Shown here in pieces: positions 3,970 through 17,377 of a stretch of 24,759 bases of DNA; the first letter of the stretch is position 1; every line of letters starts with the position of its first letter. Position numbers and translations under genes: made by a program. Source of the DNA: a virus (taxonomy: Duplodnaviria; Heunggongvirae; Uroviricota; Caudoviricetes); IMG/VR virus record IMGVR_UViG_2537561689_000015. One strand, 5' to 3'. The notes beneath the pieces are model-generated. The model had not been told where the DNA came from, made no database searches, and was given only the letters and a program-made list of their open reading frames with translations.

Positions 3970-4173
3970 TTACGGCGCTGTTTTAAGTCCTGCCGGGATT
4001 TCGTTATTATCCATGTGAATAACTTTATCGACCGGATAGCAGTTACCGGGGATTTTTTGTTCTGCTGCGGCAGCCATGCATTCTTTCATTGAACCGTAAA
4101 TGTCAATAACCATGTCAACAGGCTCGCCAGTATTAAGAAAAACAGTCAGAGTGAGGGCAATAGCAGTATTCAT
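3970..4173 (-). CDS. Hypothetical small protein with N-terminal hydrophobic segment
   Basis: Start taken at the internal ATG at 4173, preceded by AAAGGA at good spacing (ORF track extends to 4227). Hydrophobic stretch AIALTLTVFL near the N-terminus. The start overlaps the stop of the upstream ORF as ATGA. Confidence 0.45.
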   Translation of the reverse strand: MNTAIALTLTVFLNTGEPVDMVIDIYGSMKECMAAAAEQKIPGNCYPVDKVIHMDNNEIPAGLKTAP

Positions 4174-4358
4174 TGCCAGTATCCTTTTTGCATCGGGCGT
4201 AAACGTGCCAGCATTGAAAGAATGCATATTTTATTTAATAGCTCCCGTTCGTATTTTCTCTTATTAATGGCATCTTCAGTAAATACTGGGTTACTGATAG
4301 TGACACCAATTTCAAAACAACCTTCAGACGTATTGACGTTTGGTAATAACGTTTCCAT
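4170..4358 (-). CDS. Hypothetical protein (62 aa)
   Basis: Start taken at the internal ATG at 4358, preceded by GAGGA (track ORF 4170..4454). Its stop overlaps the start of the downstream gene (ATGA), suggesting translational coupling. Confidence 0.4.
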   Translation of the reverse strand: METLLPNVNTSEGCFEIGVTISNPVFTEDAINKRKYERELLNKICILSMLARLRPMQKGYWQ

Positions 4359-4547
4359 TATCGCGTCCTCAACAATGAATTTTGTGATGCGGTGCCTGGT
4401 GCCTCCAGGTGACGTTAACCAGTTAATAATTAACGCCGGATACAGAGAACCCACCCATAAGAACCAATACGGAAGTCAACTGGCCTTTTTAACTGTTCCG
4501 CGTGCGCTGAGCCGCATTCACCGCATCACAAAATTCACTTTAAAAGG

Positions 4548-4584
4548 GGCGGGTATCATGGGAAAAACAAAACGGATACCCGCC
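4548..4584 (-). terminator. Perfect 10-bp-stem hairpin, candidate leftward terminator or RNA structure
   Basis: GGCGGGTATC and GATACCCGCC form a perfect inverted repeat around a 17-nt loop. On the minus strand it is followed by CCTTTTAAA, which is only a short T-run. Confidence 0.3.
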
Positions 4585-4924
4585 AAAAGGTAATCAACAT
4601 GGGTTGTTGCAGCGGGATTGTCACTCAGGCGTATGGTCAACCTGACAACCCGGTGGACATTTGCGAGGAACGGAGAACCCCCGCCATACTTACCGCCGCG
4701 CCATTTCGCGGAGTGCCACAACCGGAAGCGCACGGTCGACGAAAATTTAACGACAGGCTATCTATGAACCAGCAACCTCGCCGTGCGCTTTCGCGTTATG
4801 CTCTGACTTTTCAGAGAAATATCCTTTCAGTAAACTGTCAGTGCCGGATGCTCACCCGTGTCCGGCGCACACACTCCACCTCACCCGTGGAGAACTCCTT
4901 AATTACCAACCCTCAGGAGGGTGA

Positions 4925-5158
4925 ATGTTAAAATCAACGCTTATTGCTAAATGCCTTTATCAAAATCGCATGGTAAGCAGCATTTCAATAGGCGAGTCTG
5001 CAGTTAAAAGTATTTTCGAAGAGTACTTTCCCGGGCATGATTTTAATAAATGGAATACCAAATTACCGCCAGCAGTTTCAACGCGTATTCTGAAAGCAAC
5101 TGAAAGAGCAAGTACAATTCGCGTTAACTATTTCATTAAAGATTTGTGGGATCTTTGA
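4925..5158 (+). CDS. Hypothetical protein (77 aa) in an AT-rich segment
   Basis: ATG preceded by AGGAGGGTGA. The gene is AT-rich compared with its flanks and is convergent with the 135-aa gene, with 23 bp of 3' overlap. No recognisable motif. Confidence 0.5.
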   Translation: MLKSTLIAKCLYQNRMVSSISIGESAVKSIFEEYFPGHDFNKWNTKLPPAVSTRILKATERASTIRVNYFIKDLWDL

Positions 5159-5543
5159 TATCCACAGAGCCTAAAGTATGTGCATATGGATGTGCTATTG
5201 TGCGCCCTCGCAGATTTGCATCATTTTCTAAATTCACTGAACGAAACAGGGCATCAACAAGGCTCTGTACAATGCAAAGGCAATCGAAGACTGTCGCCGT
5301 TTCTGTTTTGATTGATGAAAGAACATGGCCATTCACGCAAACAGAAATTACCCGTTTATTAACATCGCTTTCCTGCTTTTGATTATCAGAACCATATAGC
5401 CCTGAAAAAGCATTGCGCACATTACGAACCATATTATCGATGGTTTCTTTTTTGGTGTATGCCGGGTCAATTTTCACCAGACTATCACCGAGTGTCGTTG
5501 CAGCAATTATCTGGATTTCTTTTGGTAAATCTTTAAATTCCAT
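5136..5543 (-). CDS. Hypothetical protein (135 aa)
   Basis: ATG preceded by ACGAGG. AT-rich, and the last gene of the leftward early gene chain. No recognisable motif. Confidence 0.6.
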   Translation of the reverse strand: MEFKDLPKEIQIIAATTLGDSLVKIDPAYTKKETIDNMVRNVRNAFSGLYGSDNQKQESDVNKRVISVCVNGHVLSSIKTETATVFDCLCIVQSLVDALFRSVNLENDANLRGRTIAHPYAHTLGSVDIKDPTNL

Positions 5544-5565: not shown

Positions 5566-5784
5566 TTAACGTGGGTATGTAATCATTCTGGCAATGCTTA
5601 ATGCCGCTGCTTTTTCCAGATTGGTGATATCCTGCTCCAGAGCGGACAGATTTTCAGCCTGCTTAGCCCTGGCTTCATTGGCCCATTTCAGGTCCTGCGC
5701 AGCCTTAATTTTCTGGTGCATCCACTCATAAAGTTCATCATCGGTATAGTCTGGCGCGATGATGACGGGTTCTCGTTTCTGCAT
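5566..5784 (-). CDS. Hypothetical coiled-coil protein (72 aa)
   Basis: ATG preceded by GCGAGGAA. Lies 22 bp upstream of the 135-aa gene on the same strand. Confidence 0.55.
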   Translation of the reverse strand: MQKREPVIIAPDYTDDELYEWMHQKIKAAQDLKWANEARAKQAENLSALEQDITNLEKAAALSIARMITYPR

Positions 5785-5813
5785 ACTGATTCCTCGCGGT
5801 GCTGCTTCGCTTA

Positions 5814-5942
5814 TCAGCCGTTAGATTTTGCCGGGCTGGAAAGCGCCTGTATAAACTCACTGAAGCTGAGAGTTTCTTCGCCTTTGGCAAGGCCTTCGAA
5901 GTATTCTTCGTAAGCCTTTTCCATGATTGTGTCGAAATCCAT
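5814..5942 (-). CDS. Hypothetical acidic mini-protein (42 aa)
   Basis: Not in the ORF track because it is under 60 aa. Hand translation gives MDFDTIMEKAYEEYFEGLAKGEETLSFSEFIQALSSPAKSNG. Preceded by GGTGAG, and it begins one codon after the stop of the upstream 55-aa ORF. Confidence 0.4.
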   Translation of the reverse strand: MDFDTIMEKAYEEYFEGLAKGEETLSFSEFIQALSSPAKSNG

Positions 5943-5943
5943 A

Positions 5944-6109
5944 TCACTCACCTGAGTTTCTTTCCAGCCAGCGACGGGCACCATTTTCGGTTTTAAACGT
6001 TTTGCTTTTGGTATACGTCATCGCGGTGAACGTGCCGTCCTGGTTGGGAAACACGCCGTACACCAGAGATTCGTTGTTACCAAGATCGATAGTATCCATG
6101 TTGACCTCA
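5944..6109 (-). CDS. Hypothetical protein (55 aa), first gene of the leftward early operon
   Basis: Start taken at the internal ATG at 6109, preceded by GAGG. The track start at 6204 would lie inside the predicted pL promoter and operator, so it was rejected. Confidence 0.45.
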
Positions 6110-6175
6110 TTTCCCCTTAACGCCGGGTAGCGGAACTGTTTGCTGAGAACACCGTGCGGTGTCTTGATGGGTGGT

Positions 6176-6228
6176 AATTTAGTTTTCTCATGAGTGTTGG
6201 TCAAGTGCTTTTAATGAGAAAACTCAAT
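6176..6228 (-). promoter_or_regulatory. Predicted leftward early promoter (pL-like) with operator repeats (OL)
   Basis: On the minus strand: TTGACC (plus 6199-6204), a 17-bp spacer, then TAAATT (plus 6176-6181). Operator-like TGAGAAAACT(C/A)AA copies lie at about 6178-6191 (minus orientation) and 6215-6227 (plus orientation); the first sits in the promoter spacer. Confidence 0.5.
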
Positions 6229-6288: not shown

Positions 6289-6696
6289 TTACTGATGTTT
6301 GTTACGTTTGCGAGCTTCTAGTAGCTCGGTGAATAGGCGATTAAAATTCTCAACGCGGGCACGGAGTTCGCTGATTTGTGCTTGCTGCTCTGATTTTGGA
6401 AGTGCGCGATACAATCGCAACATCTCCAACTCATCTTCCGATAAGTCTAAGGCGCTGTTGAGTGCAACTGGTGGATCTGGTGTTTTATCCTCGTCACCAA
6501 ACAGTATCCAAGTTGGTGAACATTGCAATACCTCAGCCAGGCGATGCAAATTTTGCCCACGCGGGGCTGTATGGTCGCTTTCCCATAGTGAAATTGATGA
6601 GCCAGATACGCCAGCGGCTTTGCTTAAATCGTTTTGACTTAAACCAACCTGTTTGCGTCTTTCTCTAATTCGTTGACCTAAAGTTTTCTCGTTCAT
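6289..6696 (-). CDS. Prophage repressor, XRE/cI-type helix-turn-helix, without a peptidase domain
   Basis: 135 aa. N-terminal HTH region (QRIRERRKQVGLSQNDLSKAAGVSGSSISLWE) followed by a helical C-terminus. Too short to carry a LexA/S24 autocleavage domain. Divergent from the Cro-like gene. No Shine-Dalgarno sequence before its ATG, so it may be leaderless. Confidence 0.85.
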   Translation of the reverse strand: MNEKTLGQRIRERRKQVGLSQNDLSKAAGVSGSSISLWESDHTAPRGQNLHRLAEVLQCSPTWILFGDEDKTPDPPVALNSALDLSEDELEMLRLYRALPKSEQQAQISELRARVENFNRLFTELLEARKRNKHQ

Positions 6697-6714: not shown

Positions 6715-6761
6715 CCCTTGACTTGAGATTCCTTGAGTGATTACTATTGAGAAAACTCAAT
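6715..6761 (+). promoter_or_regulatory. Predicted rightward early promoter (pR-like) with operator repeats (OR)
   Basis: TTGACT at 6718-6723, an 18-bp spacer, then TACTAT at 6742-6747. Operator TTGAGAAAACTCAA at 6747-6760 overlaps the -10 and start region. Further TTGAG half-sites at 6723 and 6733. Confidence 0.5.
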
Positions 6762-6773
6762 TTTGGAGGGGTG

Positions 6774-7001
6774 ATGTTTAAATCAGACGTAATTAATTTT
6801 TATGGGACGAAAGCCAAAGTAGCGAAAGCTGCTGGTGTTGATCCATCTGCTGTTTCTCAATGGGGGGAACTGGTTCCTGAAGGTCGCGCGATGCGCCTGC
6901 AAGAGGCATCCGACGGGGAACTTCAGTACGACCCCAAAGTTTATGACGAATATCGTAAGGCAAAGCGGGCGGGGCGGTTGAACAATGAAAATCACCCCTG
7001 A
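6774..7001 (+). CDS. Cro-like small DNA-binding regulator (YdaS-like family)
   Basis: Start taken at the ATG at 6774, preceded by GGAGGGG (the track start at 6747 is a TTG inside the promoter). HTH-like segment with the VSQW motif common to Cro/YdaS-type proteins. Divergent from the repressor. Confidence 0.7.
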   Translation: MFKSDVINFYGTKAKVAKAAGVDPSAVSQWGELVPEGRAMRLQEASDGELQYDPKVYDEYRKAKRAGRLNNENHP

Positions 7002-11322: not shown

Positions 11323-11533
11323 AAACGGTTTGCGGGGAAATCTTAGTTAAGTAGAATGACTGTGGGTGCTTGAGGCTATCTGTCTCAGGCATGAACACCA
11401 AAAGGCAGATAGAGAAAAGCCCCAGTTAACATTACGCGTCCTGCAAGACGCTTAACATTAATCTGAGGCTCAATCCATGCTGAACACATGTAGGTTAGCC
11501 TCTTACGTGCCGAAAGGCAAGGAGAAGCAGGCT

Positions 11534-11689
11534 ATGAAGCAGCAAAAGGCGATGTTAATCGCCCTTATCGTCATCTGTTTAACCGTCATAGTGACGGCAC
11601 TGGTAACGAGGAAAGACCTCTGCGAGGTACGAATCCGAACCGGCCAGACGGAGGTCGCTGTCTTCACAGCTTACGAACCTGAGGAGTAA
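11534..11689 (+). CDS. hok: Hok/Gef-family type I toxin (small membrane toxin)
   Basis: 51-aa product MKQQKAMLIALIVICLTVIVTALVTRKDLCEVRIRTGQTEVAVFTAYEPEE, which I recognise as Hok-family (closest in my memory to HokD/RelF). Strong AAGGAGAAG Shine-Dalgarno. An in-frame upstream extension from 11477 may be a Mok-like leader reading frame. Structured leader and a terminal hairpin as in hok mRNAs. Confidence 0.85.
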   Translation: MKQQKAMLIALIVICLTVIVTALVTRKDLCEVRIRTGQTEVAVFTAYEPEE

Positions 11690-17127: not shown

Positions 17128-17203
17128 GGCCCTTTAGCTCAGTGGTGAGAGCGAGCGACTCATAATCGCCAGGTCGCTGGTTCAAATCCAGCAAGGGCCA
17201 CCA
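17128..17203 (+). tRNA. tRNA with CAU anticodon (Ile2/lysidine-type or Met)
   Basis: Hand-folded cloverleaf: acceptor GGCCCTT/AAGGGCC, D-stem GCTC/GAGC, anticodon loop CTCATAA, T-loop TTCAAAT, 3' CCA encoded. Resembles the ileX/ileZ-type tRNA of E. coli. Confidence 0.85.
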
Positions 17204-17210
17204 TCACATA

Positions 17211-17287
17211 CCGCCATTAGCTCATCAGGATAGAGCGCCAGCCTTCGAAGCTGGTTGCGCGGGGTTCGAGTCCTCGATGGCGGTCCA
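17211..17287 (+). tRNA. tRNA-Arg (anticodon UCG)
   Basis: Hand-folded cloverleaf: acceptor CCGCCAT/ATGGCGG, anticodon stem CCAGC/GCTGG with loop CTTCGAA, T-loop TTCGAGT, CCA encoded. Confidence 0.8.
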
Positions 17288-17300
17288 TTATCTGTACCCT

Positions 17301-17377
17301 GCGTTGTTAGCTCAGCCGGACAGAGCAATTGCCTTCTAAGCAATCGGTCACTGGTTCGAATCCAGTACAACGCGCCA
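17301..17377 (+). tRNA. tRNA-Arg (anticodon UCU)
   Basis: Hand-folded cloverleaf: acceptor GCGTTGT/ACAACGC, anticodon stem ATTGC/GCAAT with loop CTTCTAA, T-loop TTCGAAT, CCA encoded. Confidence 0.8.

What the first reader, a model, noticed from the sequence alone, without database searches (positions are those of the whole stretch)
5566..6109. Chain of three tiny leftward early genes, one missing from the ORF track
Directly downstream of the predicted pL lie 55-aa, 42-aa and 72-aa ORFs with 1-25 bp spacing and plausible ribosome-binding sites. The 42-aa acidic ORF (5814-5942) was found only by hand translation. These occupy the place of the lambda kil/cIII-type host-modulating genes, but none resembles those proteins by eye, and no N-like arginine-rich antiterminator is present.
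Basis: partly seen in the sequence, partly recalled or inferred. Interest (0 to 1): 0.4.

Follow-up and report, generated by a model that had tools for sequence, protein, structure and literature searches.

The report
ydfA-ydfB-ydfC of a dicBF operon
The three tiny genes are real, but they are the already named E. coli prophage genes ydfA, ydfB and ydfC, which open the well-studied DicA-repressed dicBF operon, so the finding is ordinary even though nobody yet knows what the three proteins do.

Summary
The window is an E. coli lambdoid prophage next to potC and is 100% identical to ETEC strains. The three minus-strand ORFs exist. They are ydfA (6099..5944, 51 aa, not 55), ydfB (5942..5814, 42 aa) and ydfC (5784..5566, 72 aa). 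Their proteins match K-12 Qin YdfA, YdfB and YdfC at 51/51, 38/42 and 70/72 residues. RefSeq annotates all three in identical genomes.

They follow a DicA-type repressor, a DicC/Cro-type gene and a sigma-70-like promoter flanked by repeated 13-mers. This is the known dicBF operon. DicB, the real division inhibitor, lies 1.2 kb downstream at 4170-4358.

All three are under purifying selection in the annotated frame only (pN/pS 0.11, 0.26, 0.35), and they occur in viable phages. Each gene can be absent independently, so they are separate accessory modules.

Published K-12 work shows that inducing the operon without dicF and dicB is neither toxic nor filamenting. A Kil/CIII-like role is therefore unlikely. 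None of the three hits Kil, CIII, Gam, DicB or N models.

Their function is still unknown. The models give a beta3-alpha mini-domain for YdfA and a conserved N-terminal peptide plus one long helix for YdfC.

Side observations: canonical DicF is replaced by a different hairpin, and an extra gene pair sits after ydfC.

The parts
6176..6204 (-). dicBp-type leftward early promoter ('pL'): -35 TTGACC, 17-nt spacer, -10 TAAATT
   Evidence: Promoter scan. It aligns with K-12 dicBp TTGACC-17-TAATCT. The 13-mer TTGAGTTTTCTCA occurs at 6178-6190 and 6215-6227, with a third copy at 6748-6760. These are probably DicA-type operators.
6100..6175 (-). About 70-nt leader of the operon, conserved with K-12 from ACACCGCACGGTG onward
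   Evidence: It is not unusually structured (z = 0.28), so there is nothing put-like.
5944..6099 (-). ydfA, 51 aa, DUF1391
   Evidence: Pfam PF07151 at 1.7e-28, 98.5 bits against a cut-off of 27.3. phrog_751. 51/51 identical to K-12 YdfA, with differences only at the DNA level. pN/pS 0.11. The AF2 model is beta-beta-beta-alpha, pLDDT 76.
5814..5942 (-). ydfB, 42 aa, acidic (net charge -6)
   Evidence: 38/42 identical to K-12 YdfB. phrog_2061 at 4.3e-27. RefSeq WP_000344971.1. pN/pS 0.26. The core MEKAYEEYFEGLAxGEEALSFxEF is conserved in Cronobacter phage phiES15 and Salmonella phage SW-37.
5566..5784 (-). ydfC, 72 aa
   Evidence: 70/72 identical to K-12 YdfC. phrog_1744 at 2e-39. RefSeq names it 'protein YdfC'. 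pN/pS 0.35. The AF2 model has an unstructured N-terminus (1-14) and one helix (15-69), pLDDT 88. The N-terminal 22 residues are nearly invariant. A profile search finds 103 representative clusters.
5136..5543 (-). 135-aa ORF inserted after ydfC relative to K-12 (phrog_1363). It is probably a functional partner of YdfC.
   Evidence: YdfC-like N-terminal domains are fused to its N-terminal half (P0355, E 6e-6) or its C-terminal half (P0325, E 6e-12) in other proteins.
4925..5158 (+). 77-aa ORF on the opposite strand, convergent with the 135-aa ORF and overlapping its 3' end (phrog_10348)
   Evidence: AGGAGG lies 5 nt before its ATG (read). It travels with the 135-aa ORF as a cassette.
4359..4915 (-). 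Long untranslated region of the operon. Apart from the dicF slot it is nearly identical to the K-12 ydfC-dicB UTR.
   Evidence: Pairwise alignment, 90% mean column identity, with the divergence concentrated at the dicF slot and one indel.
4545..4596 (-). Hairpin plus T-tract occupying the dicF position. It is not canonical DicF.
   Evidence: No Rfam DicF match at the gathering score or at E<=5. The stem is GGCGGGTATC/GATACCCGCC at -17.2 kcal/mol. It is found in 127 of 5426 complete E. coli genomes, against 3947 for canonical dicF.
4170..4358 (-). dicB, 62 aa, cell-division inhibitor
   Evidence: Pfam PF05358 at 1.7e-38. 55/62 identical to K-12 DicB. RefSeq names it dicB.
3970..4173 (-). ydfD-like DUF1482 gene, 67 aa
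   Evidence: Pfam PF07358 at 4.3e-20. 44/67 identical to K-12 YdfD.
6289..6696 (-). DicA-type repressor, 135 aa
   Evidence: NCBIfam PRK09706 'transcriptional repressor DicA' at 1.7e-71, and HTH_3. It is only 74/135 identical to K-12 DicA.
6774..7001 (+). DicC / P22-Cro-type regulator, divergent from dicA
   Evidence: NCBIfam PRK09744 DicC at 1.1e-48 and Pfam P22_Cro at 8.2e-18. The RefSeq CDS gives these coordinates.

Best explanation
SHOWN. The three ORFs are the ydfA, ydfB and ydfC cistrons, the promoter-proximal genes of a dicBF-type early-left operon. The operon belongs to a Qin-like lambdoid prophage of E. coli, integrated beside potC.
- They are transcribed leftward from a dicBp-type promoter that sits among DicA-type operator repeats. 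They are therefore silent in the lysogen and made only when the DicA-like repressor is relieved.
- They are translated as three separate small proteins. ydfB is probably translationally coupled to ydfA (TGAtATG).
- Each is held by purifying selection.
- Each is an independent mosaic module that can be present or absent in related phages.

FROM THE LITERATURE on the near-identical K-12 orthologues.
- The genes are co-transcribed with dicF and dicB on a 1.1-1.6 kb polycistronic RNA.
- They have no known function.
- They cause neither growth arrest nor filamentation when induced without dicF and dicB.
- The operon's division-inhibiting and phage-excluding activities belong to DicB and DicF.

INFERRED (weak). 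The three are non-toxic accessory proteins of early lytic development that act by binding other proteins or nucleic acids, not enzymatically.
- YdfA is a compact three-strand-plus-helix mini-domain.
- YdfB is an acidic helical peptide.
- YdfC has a nearly invariant N-terminal peptide (MQKxEPxIIAPxYxDDELYEWM) on a long coiled-coil-type helix. In this prophage it probably works with the adjacent 135-aa protein, because relatives exist in which the two are fused.
For: Identity:
- The 1.7-kb region is 100% identical to ETEC chromosomes, where RefSeq calls ydfA/DUF1391, a 42-aa hypothetical protein and ydfC.
- The K-12 layout dicC-dicA-ydfA-ydfB-ydfC-dicF-dicB-ydfD is matched gene for gene.
- Protein identities to K-12 are 51/51, 38/42 and 70/72.
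- Family hits are Pfam DUF1391 and PHROGs 751, 2061 and 1744.
- DicA and DicC are identified by NCBIfam and DicB by Pfam.

Coding:
- pN/pS is 0.11, 0.26 and 0.35 in the annotated frame only.
- YdfB homologues are found in Cronobacter and Salmonella phages.

Occurrence:
- The region has a match in 4106 of 5426 complete E. coli genomes.
- The genes are also present in viable phages: mEp460, Tritos, PhiR42_1, HannyBb and phiES15.

Independent modules: architectures lacking one or two of the three genes are common.

Not toxic: the K-12 strain lacking dicF and dicB grows normally on induction (PMC5069750). Phage resistance from the operon maps to dicB (PMC6832061).

Function unknown: as of 2023, only DicF, DicB and YdfD were characterised in the operon (PMC10448788).

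Structure and fusions.
Against: No experiment or homology assigns a biochemical activity to any of the three, so the 'binding protein' part is inference from size and predicted shape only.
- Fold searches with the YdfA model gave nothing below E = 0.1.
- A single long helix, as in the YdfC model, is uninformative.
- The K-12 non-toxicity result was obtained at chromosomal Plac expression levels in one strain, with ydfD still present. It does not exclude subtler host effects.
- The fusion evidence for a YdfC-Orf135 link rests on two representative proteins of unknown origin.
Confidence: 0.88

Rival explanations
1. Kil/CIII-type host modulators. One or more of the three proteins blocks cell division, arrests growth or shifts the lysis-lysogeny decision, as lambda Kil and CIII do from the same map position.
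For: They share the map position, immediately downstream of the leftward early promoter. They are small and conserved. An ASKA overexpression screen listed ydfA and ydfB among many candidate oxidant-resistance genes, which hints at some host effect (PMC8228696).
Against: There is no similarity to Kil, CIII, Gam or DicB models in Pfam, NCBIfam, PHROGs or PADLOC. In K-12, induction of the operon lacking dicF and dicB gave wild-type growth, viable counts and morphology. The operon carries its own division inhibitor, DicB, further downstream. A filamentation screen flagged the whole region, and the authors attribute that hit to dicB and dicF (PMC6206680). An effect on lysogeny frequency has not been tested anywhere.
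Confidence: 0.07
2. Mainly cis-acting leader ORFs. Their translation matters more than their products. Ribosomes on the three tightly spaced cistrons would protect the long transcript from Rho or RNase E and so set how much RNA reaches the sRNA slot and dicB.
For: They are promoter-proximal, very short and closely spaced, and ydfA and ydfB are coupled. A 560-nt untranslated stretch follows them. In K-12, the stability of the upstream part of the transcript depends on RNase E and RNase III (PMC10448788).
Against: Amino-acid sequences are constrained: pN/pS is 0.11-0.35 in frame and 0.64 or more out of frame. YdfB and YdfC relatives are conserved as proteins across genera. Each gene is dispensable for the architecture, since operons lacking one or two of them still carry dicF and dicB. 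A cis role could coexist with a protein role.
Confidence: 0.04
3. Decaying remnants. The ORFs are leftover reading frames of a cryptic prophage, with no present function.
For: They were first described in the defective Qin prophage. ydfB shows frameshifted or truncated variants and is absent in some strains.
Against: Purifying selection acts on all three. They are present in plaque-forming or inducible phages. YdfA is 100% conserved between prophages whose repressors are only 55% identical.
Confidence: 0.01

Closest known systems
ydfA-ydfB-ydfC of the dicBF operon, Qin cryptic prophage, E. coli K-12 (b1571-b1573)
   Same: Same gene order and the same 1-nt and 29-nt spacings. Same leader from ACACCGCACGGTG onward. 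Protein identities are 51/51, 38/42 and 70/72. The arrangement is the same: a divergent dicA/dicC pair, then the dicBp promoter, the three ORFs, a long UTR, dicB and a DUF1482 gene.
   Different: The repressor here is only 74/135 identical to K-12 DicA, and the operator and promoter sequences differ. A 135-aa ORF plus an opposite-strand 77-aa ORF are inserted after ydfC. The dicF slot holds a different hairpin. This prophage still has int, xis and an exonuclease gene, and it sits beside potC.
ydaG-ydaF region of the Rac prophage, E. coli K-12
   Same: YdaF is a 51-aa DUF1391 protein, a close relative of YdfA. It lies just downstream of the repressor gene racR in the leftward operon. An opposite-strand gene (sieB), an sRNA (kilS), an FtsZ inhibitor (kilR), small ORFs and an exonuclease (recE) follow. 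The overall plan matches this window.
   Different: The repressor family differs. The partner ORF YdaG is unrelated to YdfB. There is no YdfC homologue. The division inhibitor is KilR, not DicB.
Lambda pL-operon accessory genes (kil, cIII, ea10, ral)
   Same: Small, non-essential proteins encoded just downstream of the leftward early promoter and expressed only after repressor loss (established lambda biology, own knowledge).
   Different: There is no sequence relationship. No N gene precedes them. The K-12 orthologues show no growth or division phenotype.

Membership tests
DUF1391 (Pfam PF07151; YdfA/YdaF) | Full-length match to the family HMM above the gathering score | tested here: met
   98.5 bits against a cut-off of 27.3, covering residues 2-49 of 51. 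Identical to K-12 YdfA.
YdfB (RefSeq 'protein YdfB'; phrog_2061) | 42-aa protein homologous over its full length to K-12 YdfB and located between ydfA and ydfC | tested here: met
   38/42 identical. phrog_2061 at 4.3e-27. Same position and the same 1-nt gap after ydfA.
YdfC (RefSeq 'protein YdfC'; phrog_1744) | 72-aa protein homologous over its full length to K-12 YdfC | tested here: met
   70/72 identical. phrog_1744 at 2e-39. RefSeq names the identical protein YdfC.
dicBF operon (Qin type) | Divergent DicA repressor and DicC genes upstream, with a repressible promoter | tested here: met
   NCBIfam DicA at 1.7e-71 and DicC at 1.1e-48. Promoter at 6204-6176. Repeated 13-mers. Repression itself was not tested.
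dicBF operon (Qin type) | dicB cell-division inhibitor gene downstream | tested here: met
   Pfam DicB at 1.7e-38 at 4170-4358.
dicBF operon (Qin type) | DicF sRNA (Rfam RF00039) in the UTR between ydfC and dicB | tested here: not met
   No DicF match at the gathering score or at E<=5. A different hairpin occupies the slot. This concerns the operon, not the identity of the three ORFs.
Lambda Kil / CIII / Gam, or DicB-like host modulators | Sequence similarity to the family models | tested here: not met
   No such hit for any of the three at E<=0.1 in Pfam, or in NCBIfam, PHROGs or PADLOC.
Lambda Kil / CIII / Gam, or DicB-like host modulators | Growth arrest or filamentation on expression | not testable with these tools
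   Published K-12 data show that the operon induced without dicF and dicB gives normal growth and morphology (PMC5069750).
Lambda N-type antiterminator | Arginine-rich N-terminal motif protein as the first gene after pL | tested here: not met
   The first gene is YdfA (net charge -1, no arginine-rich motif). No N-like gene is annotated between the repressor and int. The leader is not unusually structured.
EF-hand (considered for YdfB) | Significant profile match and a canonical 12-residue DxDxDG...E loop | tested here: not met
   The single-sequence best PDB hits were S100A12 and calcyphosin, but at E about 0.7. With a family profile the signal did not improve: best E was 0.44, to sulerythrin. 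The loop is one residue short and lacks the Asp ligands (read from the sequence).
Lambda Int N-terminal / AP2-like three-strand-plus-helix DNA-binding fold (considered for YdfA) | Significant structural match | tested here: inconclusive
   The model is beta3-alpha at pLDDT 76. Foldseek hits to 1kjk, 2wcc and phage HNH-associated domains have E of 0.2 or more and TM 0.48-0.62.

The most novel reading that the evidence does not exclude
The three proteins, none of which has a known function in any phage, may be early-expressed, non-toxic effectors of a kind not yet described, for example counter-defence or lysis-lysogeny modulators. In this reading YdfC would be the N-terminal adaptor half of a split two-part protein, and the neighbouring 135-aa ORF would be its second half. 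Their independent presence and absence would reflect host-specific tuning.
Probability: 0.15. Interest if true: 0.4.

Novelty: already known. Interest (0 to 1): 0.1.

Why it matters
It matters little as a discovery. The genes have been named, annotated and discussed in the dicBF literature since the 1980s and 1990s. The region that carries them has a match in about three quarters of complete E. coli genomes.

The residual value is as a reminder that ydfA, ydfB and ydfC are widespread, selected, early-expressed prophage proteins that still have no assigned function. This work adds three small leads:
- All three are under frame-specific purifying selection.
- They behave as independent mosaic modules.
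- YdfC-like domains occur fused to pieces of the adjacent 135-aa protein.

Tried and rejected
- **Kil, CIII, Gam, DicB and N similarity.** None found in Pfam, NCBIfam, PHROGs or PADLOC. The only PADLOC line, AbiEi at E 0.009 and 13.7 bits for YdfA, is noise.
- **EF-hand reading of YdfB.** The best PDB hits to the single sequence were EF-hand proteins, but at E about 0.7. A family profile did not strengthen this. Dropped.
- **Head-decoration protein reading of YdfA.** Several GenBank phage records use this annotation. It traces to a 19-residue similarity to phage 21 SHP at E 0.024. Rejected as a misannotation.
- **Fold search with the YdfA model.** Searches against PDB and BFVD gave nothing below E 0.1.
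- **put-like or otherwise structured leader.** Its folding energy is no better than shuffled sequence (z 0.28).
- **Technical limits.** The one-genome-per-species collection gave only 4 loci for YdfC. One of them is labelled a Collinsella MAG, which is probably contamination by E. coli DNA.
- **Hairpin at the dicF position against the ftsZ leader.** The RNA duplex check is crude, because shuffled controls score nearly as well as true DicF. It is used only as a side note.
- **Context of a distant YdfC relative (P0363).** The only contig is 1.2 kb long and uninformative.

Full report
**What is there**

Reading the minus strand from 6300 down to 5300 shows a sigma-70-like promoter: TTGACC, 17 nt, TAAATT at 6204-6176. 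A leader of about 70 nt follows, then three ORFs, each with a Shine-Dalgarno sequence.

| ORF | Start | Stop ends | Length |
|---|---|---|---|
| First | ATG 6099 | 5944 | 51 aa |
| Second | ATG 5942 | 5814 | 42 aa |
| Third | ATG 5784 | 5566 | 72 aa |

The gaps between them are 1 nt (TGAtATG) and 29 nt.

The '55-aa' ORF ending at 6109 is not. The ATG at 6110 opens a different 30-aa frame. The only in-frame upstream start codon, TTG at 6204, is the -35 hexamer itself.

ORFs of this size are common by chance: there are 67 ORFs of at least 25 aa in 4.5 kb. Their existence alone proves nothing.

**What it is**

The 1.7-kb region is 100% identical to chromosomes of several human ETEC isolates, and it has a match in 4106 of 5426 complete E. 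coli genomes. In the identical genome, RefSeq annotates this gene order: potC, integrase, excisionase, exonuclease, DUF1482, dicB, two hypothetical genes, ydfC, a 42-aa hypothetical protein, ydfA/DUF1391, an HTH repressor, a Cro/CI regulator, YdaT-like, O-like and DnaC-like.

K-12's Qin prophage has the order dicC, dicA, ydfA (51 aa), ydfB (42 aa), ydfC (72 aa), dicF, dicB, ydfD. The window proteins match K-12 YdfA, YdfB and YdfC at 51/51, 38/42 and 70/72 residues.

- YdfA hits Pfam DUF1391 at 98.5 bits, against a cut-off of 27.3.
- All three hit PHROG families of unknown function.
- The repressor is DicA by NCBIfam (1.7e-71), and the divergent gene is DicC (1.1e-48).
- DicB is at 4170-4358 (Pfam 1.7e-38).

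The finding is therefore the promoter-proximal part of a dicBF operon. Three copies of TTGAGTTTTCTCA flank and overlap the two divergent promoters, against 0.76 matches expected by chance. They are the likely operators.

**Are they genes?**

I collected about 170 related loci from E. coli genomes, phage records and IMG/VR contigs. I then compared the unique alleles.

| Gene | pN/pS, annotated frame | pN/pS, other two frames |
|---|---|---|
| ydfA | 0.11 | 11 and 2.1 |
| ydfB | 0.26 | 1.07 and 0.93 |
| ydfC | 0.35 | 3.3 and 0.64 |

YdfA differs from the K-12 copy only at the DNA level; the protein is unchanged.

The YdfB core, MEKAYEEYFEGLAxGEEALSFxEF, is conserved in Cronobacter phage phiES15. 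There it is the first, unannotated ORF after a DicA-like repressor. It is also conserved in Salmonella phage SW-37. The 42-aa start is preferred over the 56-aa alternative listed by the ORF tool for two reasons: the extension lies inside ydfA in another frame, and GGTGAG precedes the ATG at 5942.

All three are therefore real coding genes. The 42-aa one was missing only from a length-filtered ORF list.

**How they are organised**

Across the loci the order ydfA, ydfB, ydfC never changes, but each gene can be absent. The observed layouts include the following:
- DicA followed directly by YdfC.
- DicA, YdfA, YdfB, then dicF, with no YdfC.
- DicA, YdfA, then the 135-aa ORF, in phage mEp460.
- DicA then YdfB, in phiES15.

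They are therefore independent mosaic modules, not an obligate complex. The mosaic joint with the immunity region lies in the leader. The DicA here is only 74/135 identical to K-12 DicA, yet the downstream genes are nearly identical.

K-12's other lambdoid remnant, Rac, has the same plan: racR, ydaG, ydaF (DUF1391), sieB on the opposite strand, kilS sRNA, kilR, small ORFs and recE.

**What is known about function**

- The dicBF literature calls ydfA, ydfB and ydfC small proteins of unknown function (PMC5069750).
- In 2023 the only characterised products of the operon were still DicF, DicB and YdfD (PMC10448788). A 2026 preprint still describes YdfC as having no known function.
- In K-12 the genes are co-transcribed from dicBp on RNAs of 1,146 and 1,608 nt.
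- With Plac replacing dicBp, the whole operon is very toxic. With dicF and dicB deleted, and ydfABC and ydfD still expressed, growth, viable counts and morphology are like wild type.
- Protection against lambda infection also maps to dicB (PMC6832061).

Model searches found no Kil, CIII, Gam, DicB or defence-system similarity.

**What the proteins look like**

YdfA:
- AlphaFold2 with a shallow alignment gives three short strands packed on a C-terminal helix (pLDDT 76).
- Foldseek against PDB and BFVD finds nothing below E 0.1.
- The lambda Int N-terminal domain and phage HNH-associated domains appear only as weak look-alikes.

YdfC:
- The model gives an unstructured N-terminus and a single helix from residue 15 to 69 (pLDDT 88).
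- Its N-terminal 22 residues are nearly invariant even in relatives of 45-60% identity, while the helix varies. That is the pattern expected of a binding peptide on an oligomerising helix.
- Profile hits in the PDB are coiled coils at insignificant E-values.
- A profile search of 1.84 billion representatives finds 103 clusters, some of 130-190 aa with C-terminal extensions that have no Pfam domain.
- Two of those extensions match the N-terminal half (E 6e-6) or the C-terminal half (E 6e-12) of the 135-aa ORF that directly follows ydfC in this window. This is a gene-fusion hint that the two work together.

YdfB:
- Its best PDB hits are EF-hand proteins, but at E about 0.7. The signal vanishes with a family profile.

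**Verdict**

The positional interpretation is right. The suggestion of novelty is not.

These are ydfA, ydfB and ydfC. They are known, widespread, selected and still uncharacterised, and their K-12 orthologues do not arrest growth or division. My best mechanistic guess, with low confidence, is that they are non-toxic accessory proteins of early lytic development that act by binding other molecules.

**Seen on the way**

- *The dicF slot.* The 560-nt UTR between the inserted genes and dicB is almost identical to K-12's, except exactly at the dicF position. There a different 10-bp hairpin with a T-tract replaces DicF. Rfam does not recognise it. It occurs in 127 complete E. coli genomes, against 3947 with canonical dicF.
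- *An inserted gene pair.* A 135-aa ORF and an opposite-strand 77-aa ORF with a strong ribosome-binding site are inserted after ydfC relative to K-12.

Noticed in passing
window 4545-4596 (-): At the exact position of dicF, inside a UTR otherwise nearly identical to K-12's, there is a different hairpin (GGCGGGTATC...GATACCCGCC) followed by a T-tract. Rfam's DicF model does not match it even at E<=5. It lacks DicF's 5' segment, and in a crude duplex test it shows no DicF-like complementarity to the ftsZ leader. This allele is unannotated and occurs in 127 of 5426 complete E. coli genomes, against 3947 with canonical dicF. It may be only a terminator, or it may be an sRNA with other targets.
   Followed up: partly
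window 5136-5543 (-) and 4925-5158 (+): Relative to K-12, a 135-aa ORF (phrog_1363) and a convergent, 3'-overlapping 77-aa ORF on the opposite strand (phrog_10348, AGGAGG ribosome-binding site) are inserted between ydfC and the long UTR. They travel together as a cassette in many loci. Neither has a Pfam, PDB or PADLOC match. The opposite-strand gene sits where sieB sits in Rac.
   Followed up: partly
proteins P0355 and P0325 versus window 5136-5543: In other representatives, YdfC-like N-terminal domains are fused to the N-terminal half (E 6e-6) or the C-terminal half (E 6e-12) of the 135-aa protein. This suggests that YdfC and that protein are two halves of one functional unit.
   Followed up: partly
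window 6178-6190, 6215-6227, 6748-6760: Three copies of the 13-mer TTGAGTTTTCTCA (0-1 mismatch) bracket the leftward promoter and lie in the rightward promoter region. There are 5 matches in the window against 0.76 expected by chance. They are probably operators of this DicA-type repressor, which is only 55% identical to K-12 DicA.
   Followed up: partly
window 4381-4535 (-): A sub-threshold Rfam match to the Salmonella sRNA family STnc100 (33.5 bits against a gathering score of 47, E 5e-5) lies in the UTR just upstream of dicB. The same sequence is conserved in K-12.
   Followed up: no
L010 2804-3421 (phage HannyBb): The first 34 residues of YdfB are joined in frame to a 205-aa ORF (phrog_35040) with no Pfam domain. 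This may be a recombination joint and not a real longer protein.
   Followed up: no
GenBank phage records H16-H18, H37, H38 and H40: The YdfA homologue is annotated 'head-DNA stabilization protein D' in several phage genomes. The only basis found is a 19-residue similarity to the phage 21 SHP decoration protein (E 0.024). This is probably a propagated misannotation.
   Followed up: partly
window 11364-11539 (+) and 17128-17374 (+): There is a full-length sok antitoxin RNA of a hok/sok module (118.9 bits), next to hokD in the RefSeq annotation. There is also a cluster of three tRNA genes further right in the prophage.
   Followed up: no
L004: A 2.5-kb contig labelled as a Collinsella sp. MAG carries ydfA, ydfB and ydfC at 88-100% protein identity to this window. 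It is almost certainly E. coli prophage DNA mis-binned into that MAG.
   Followed up: no
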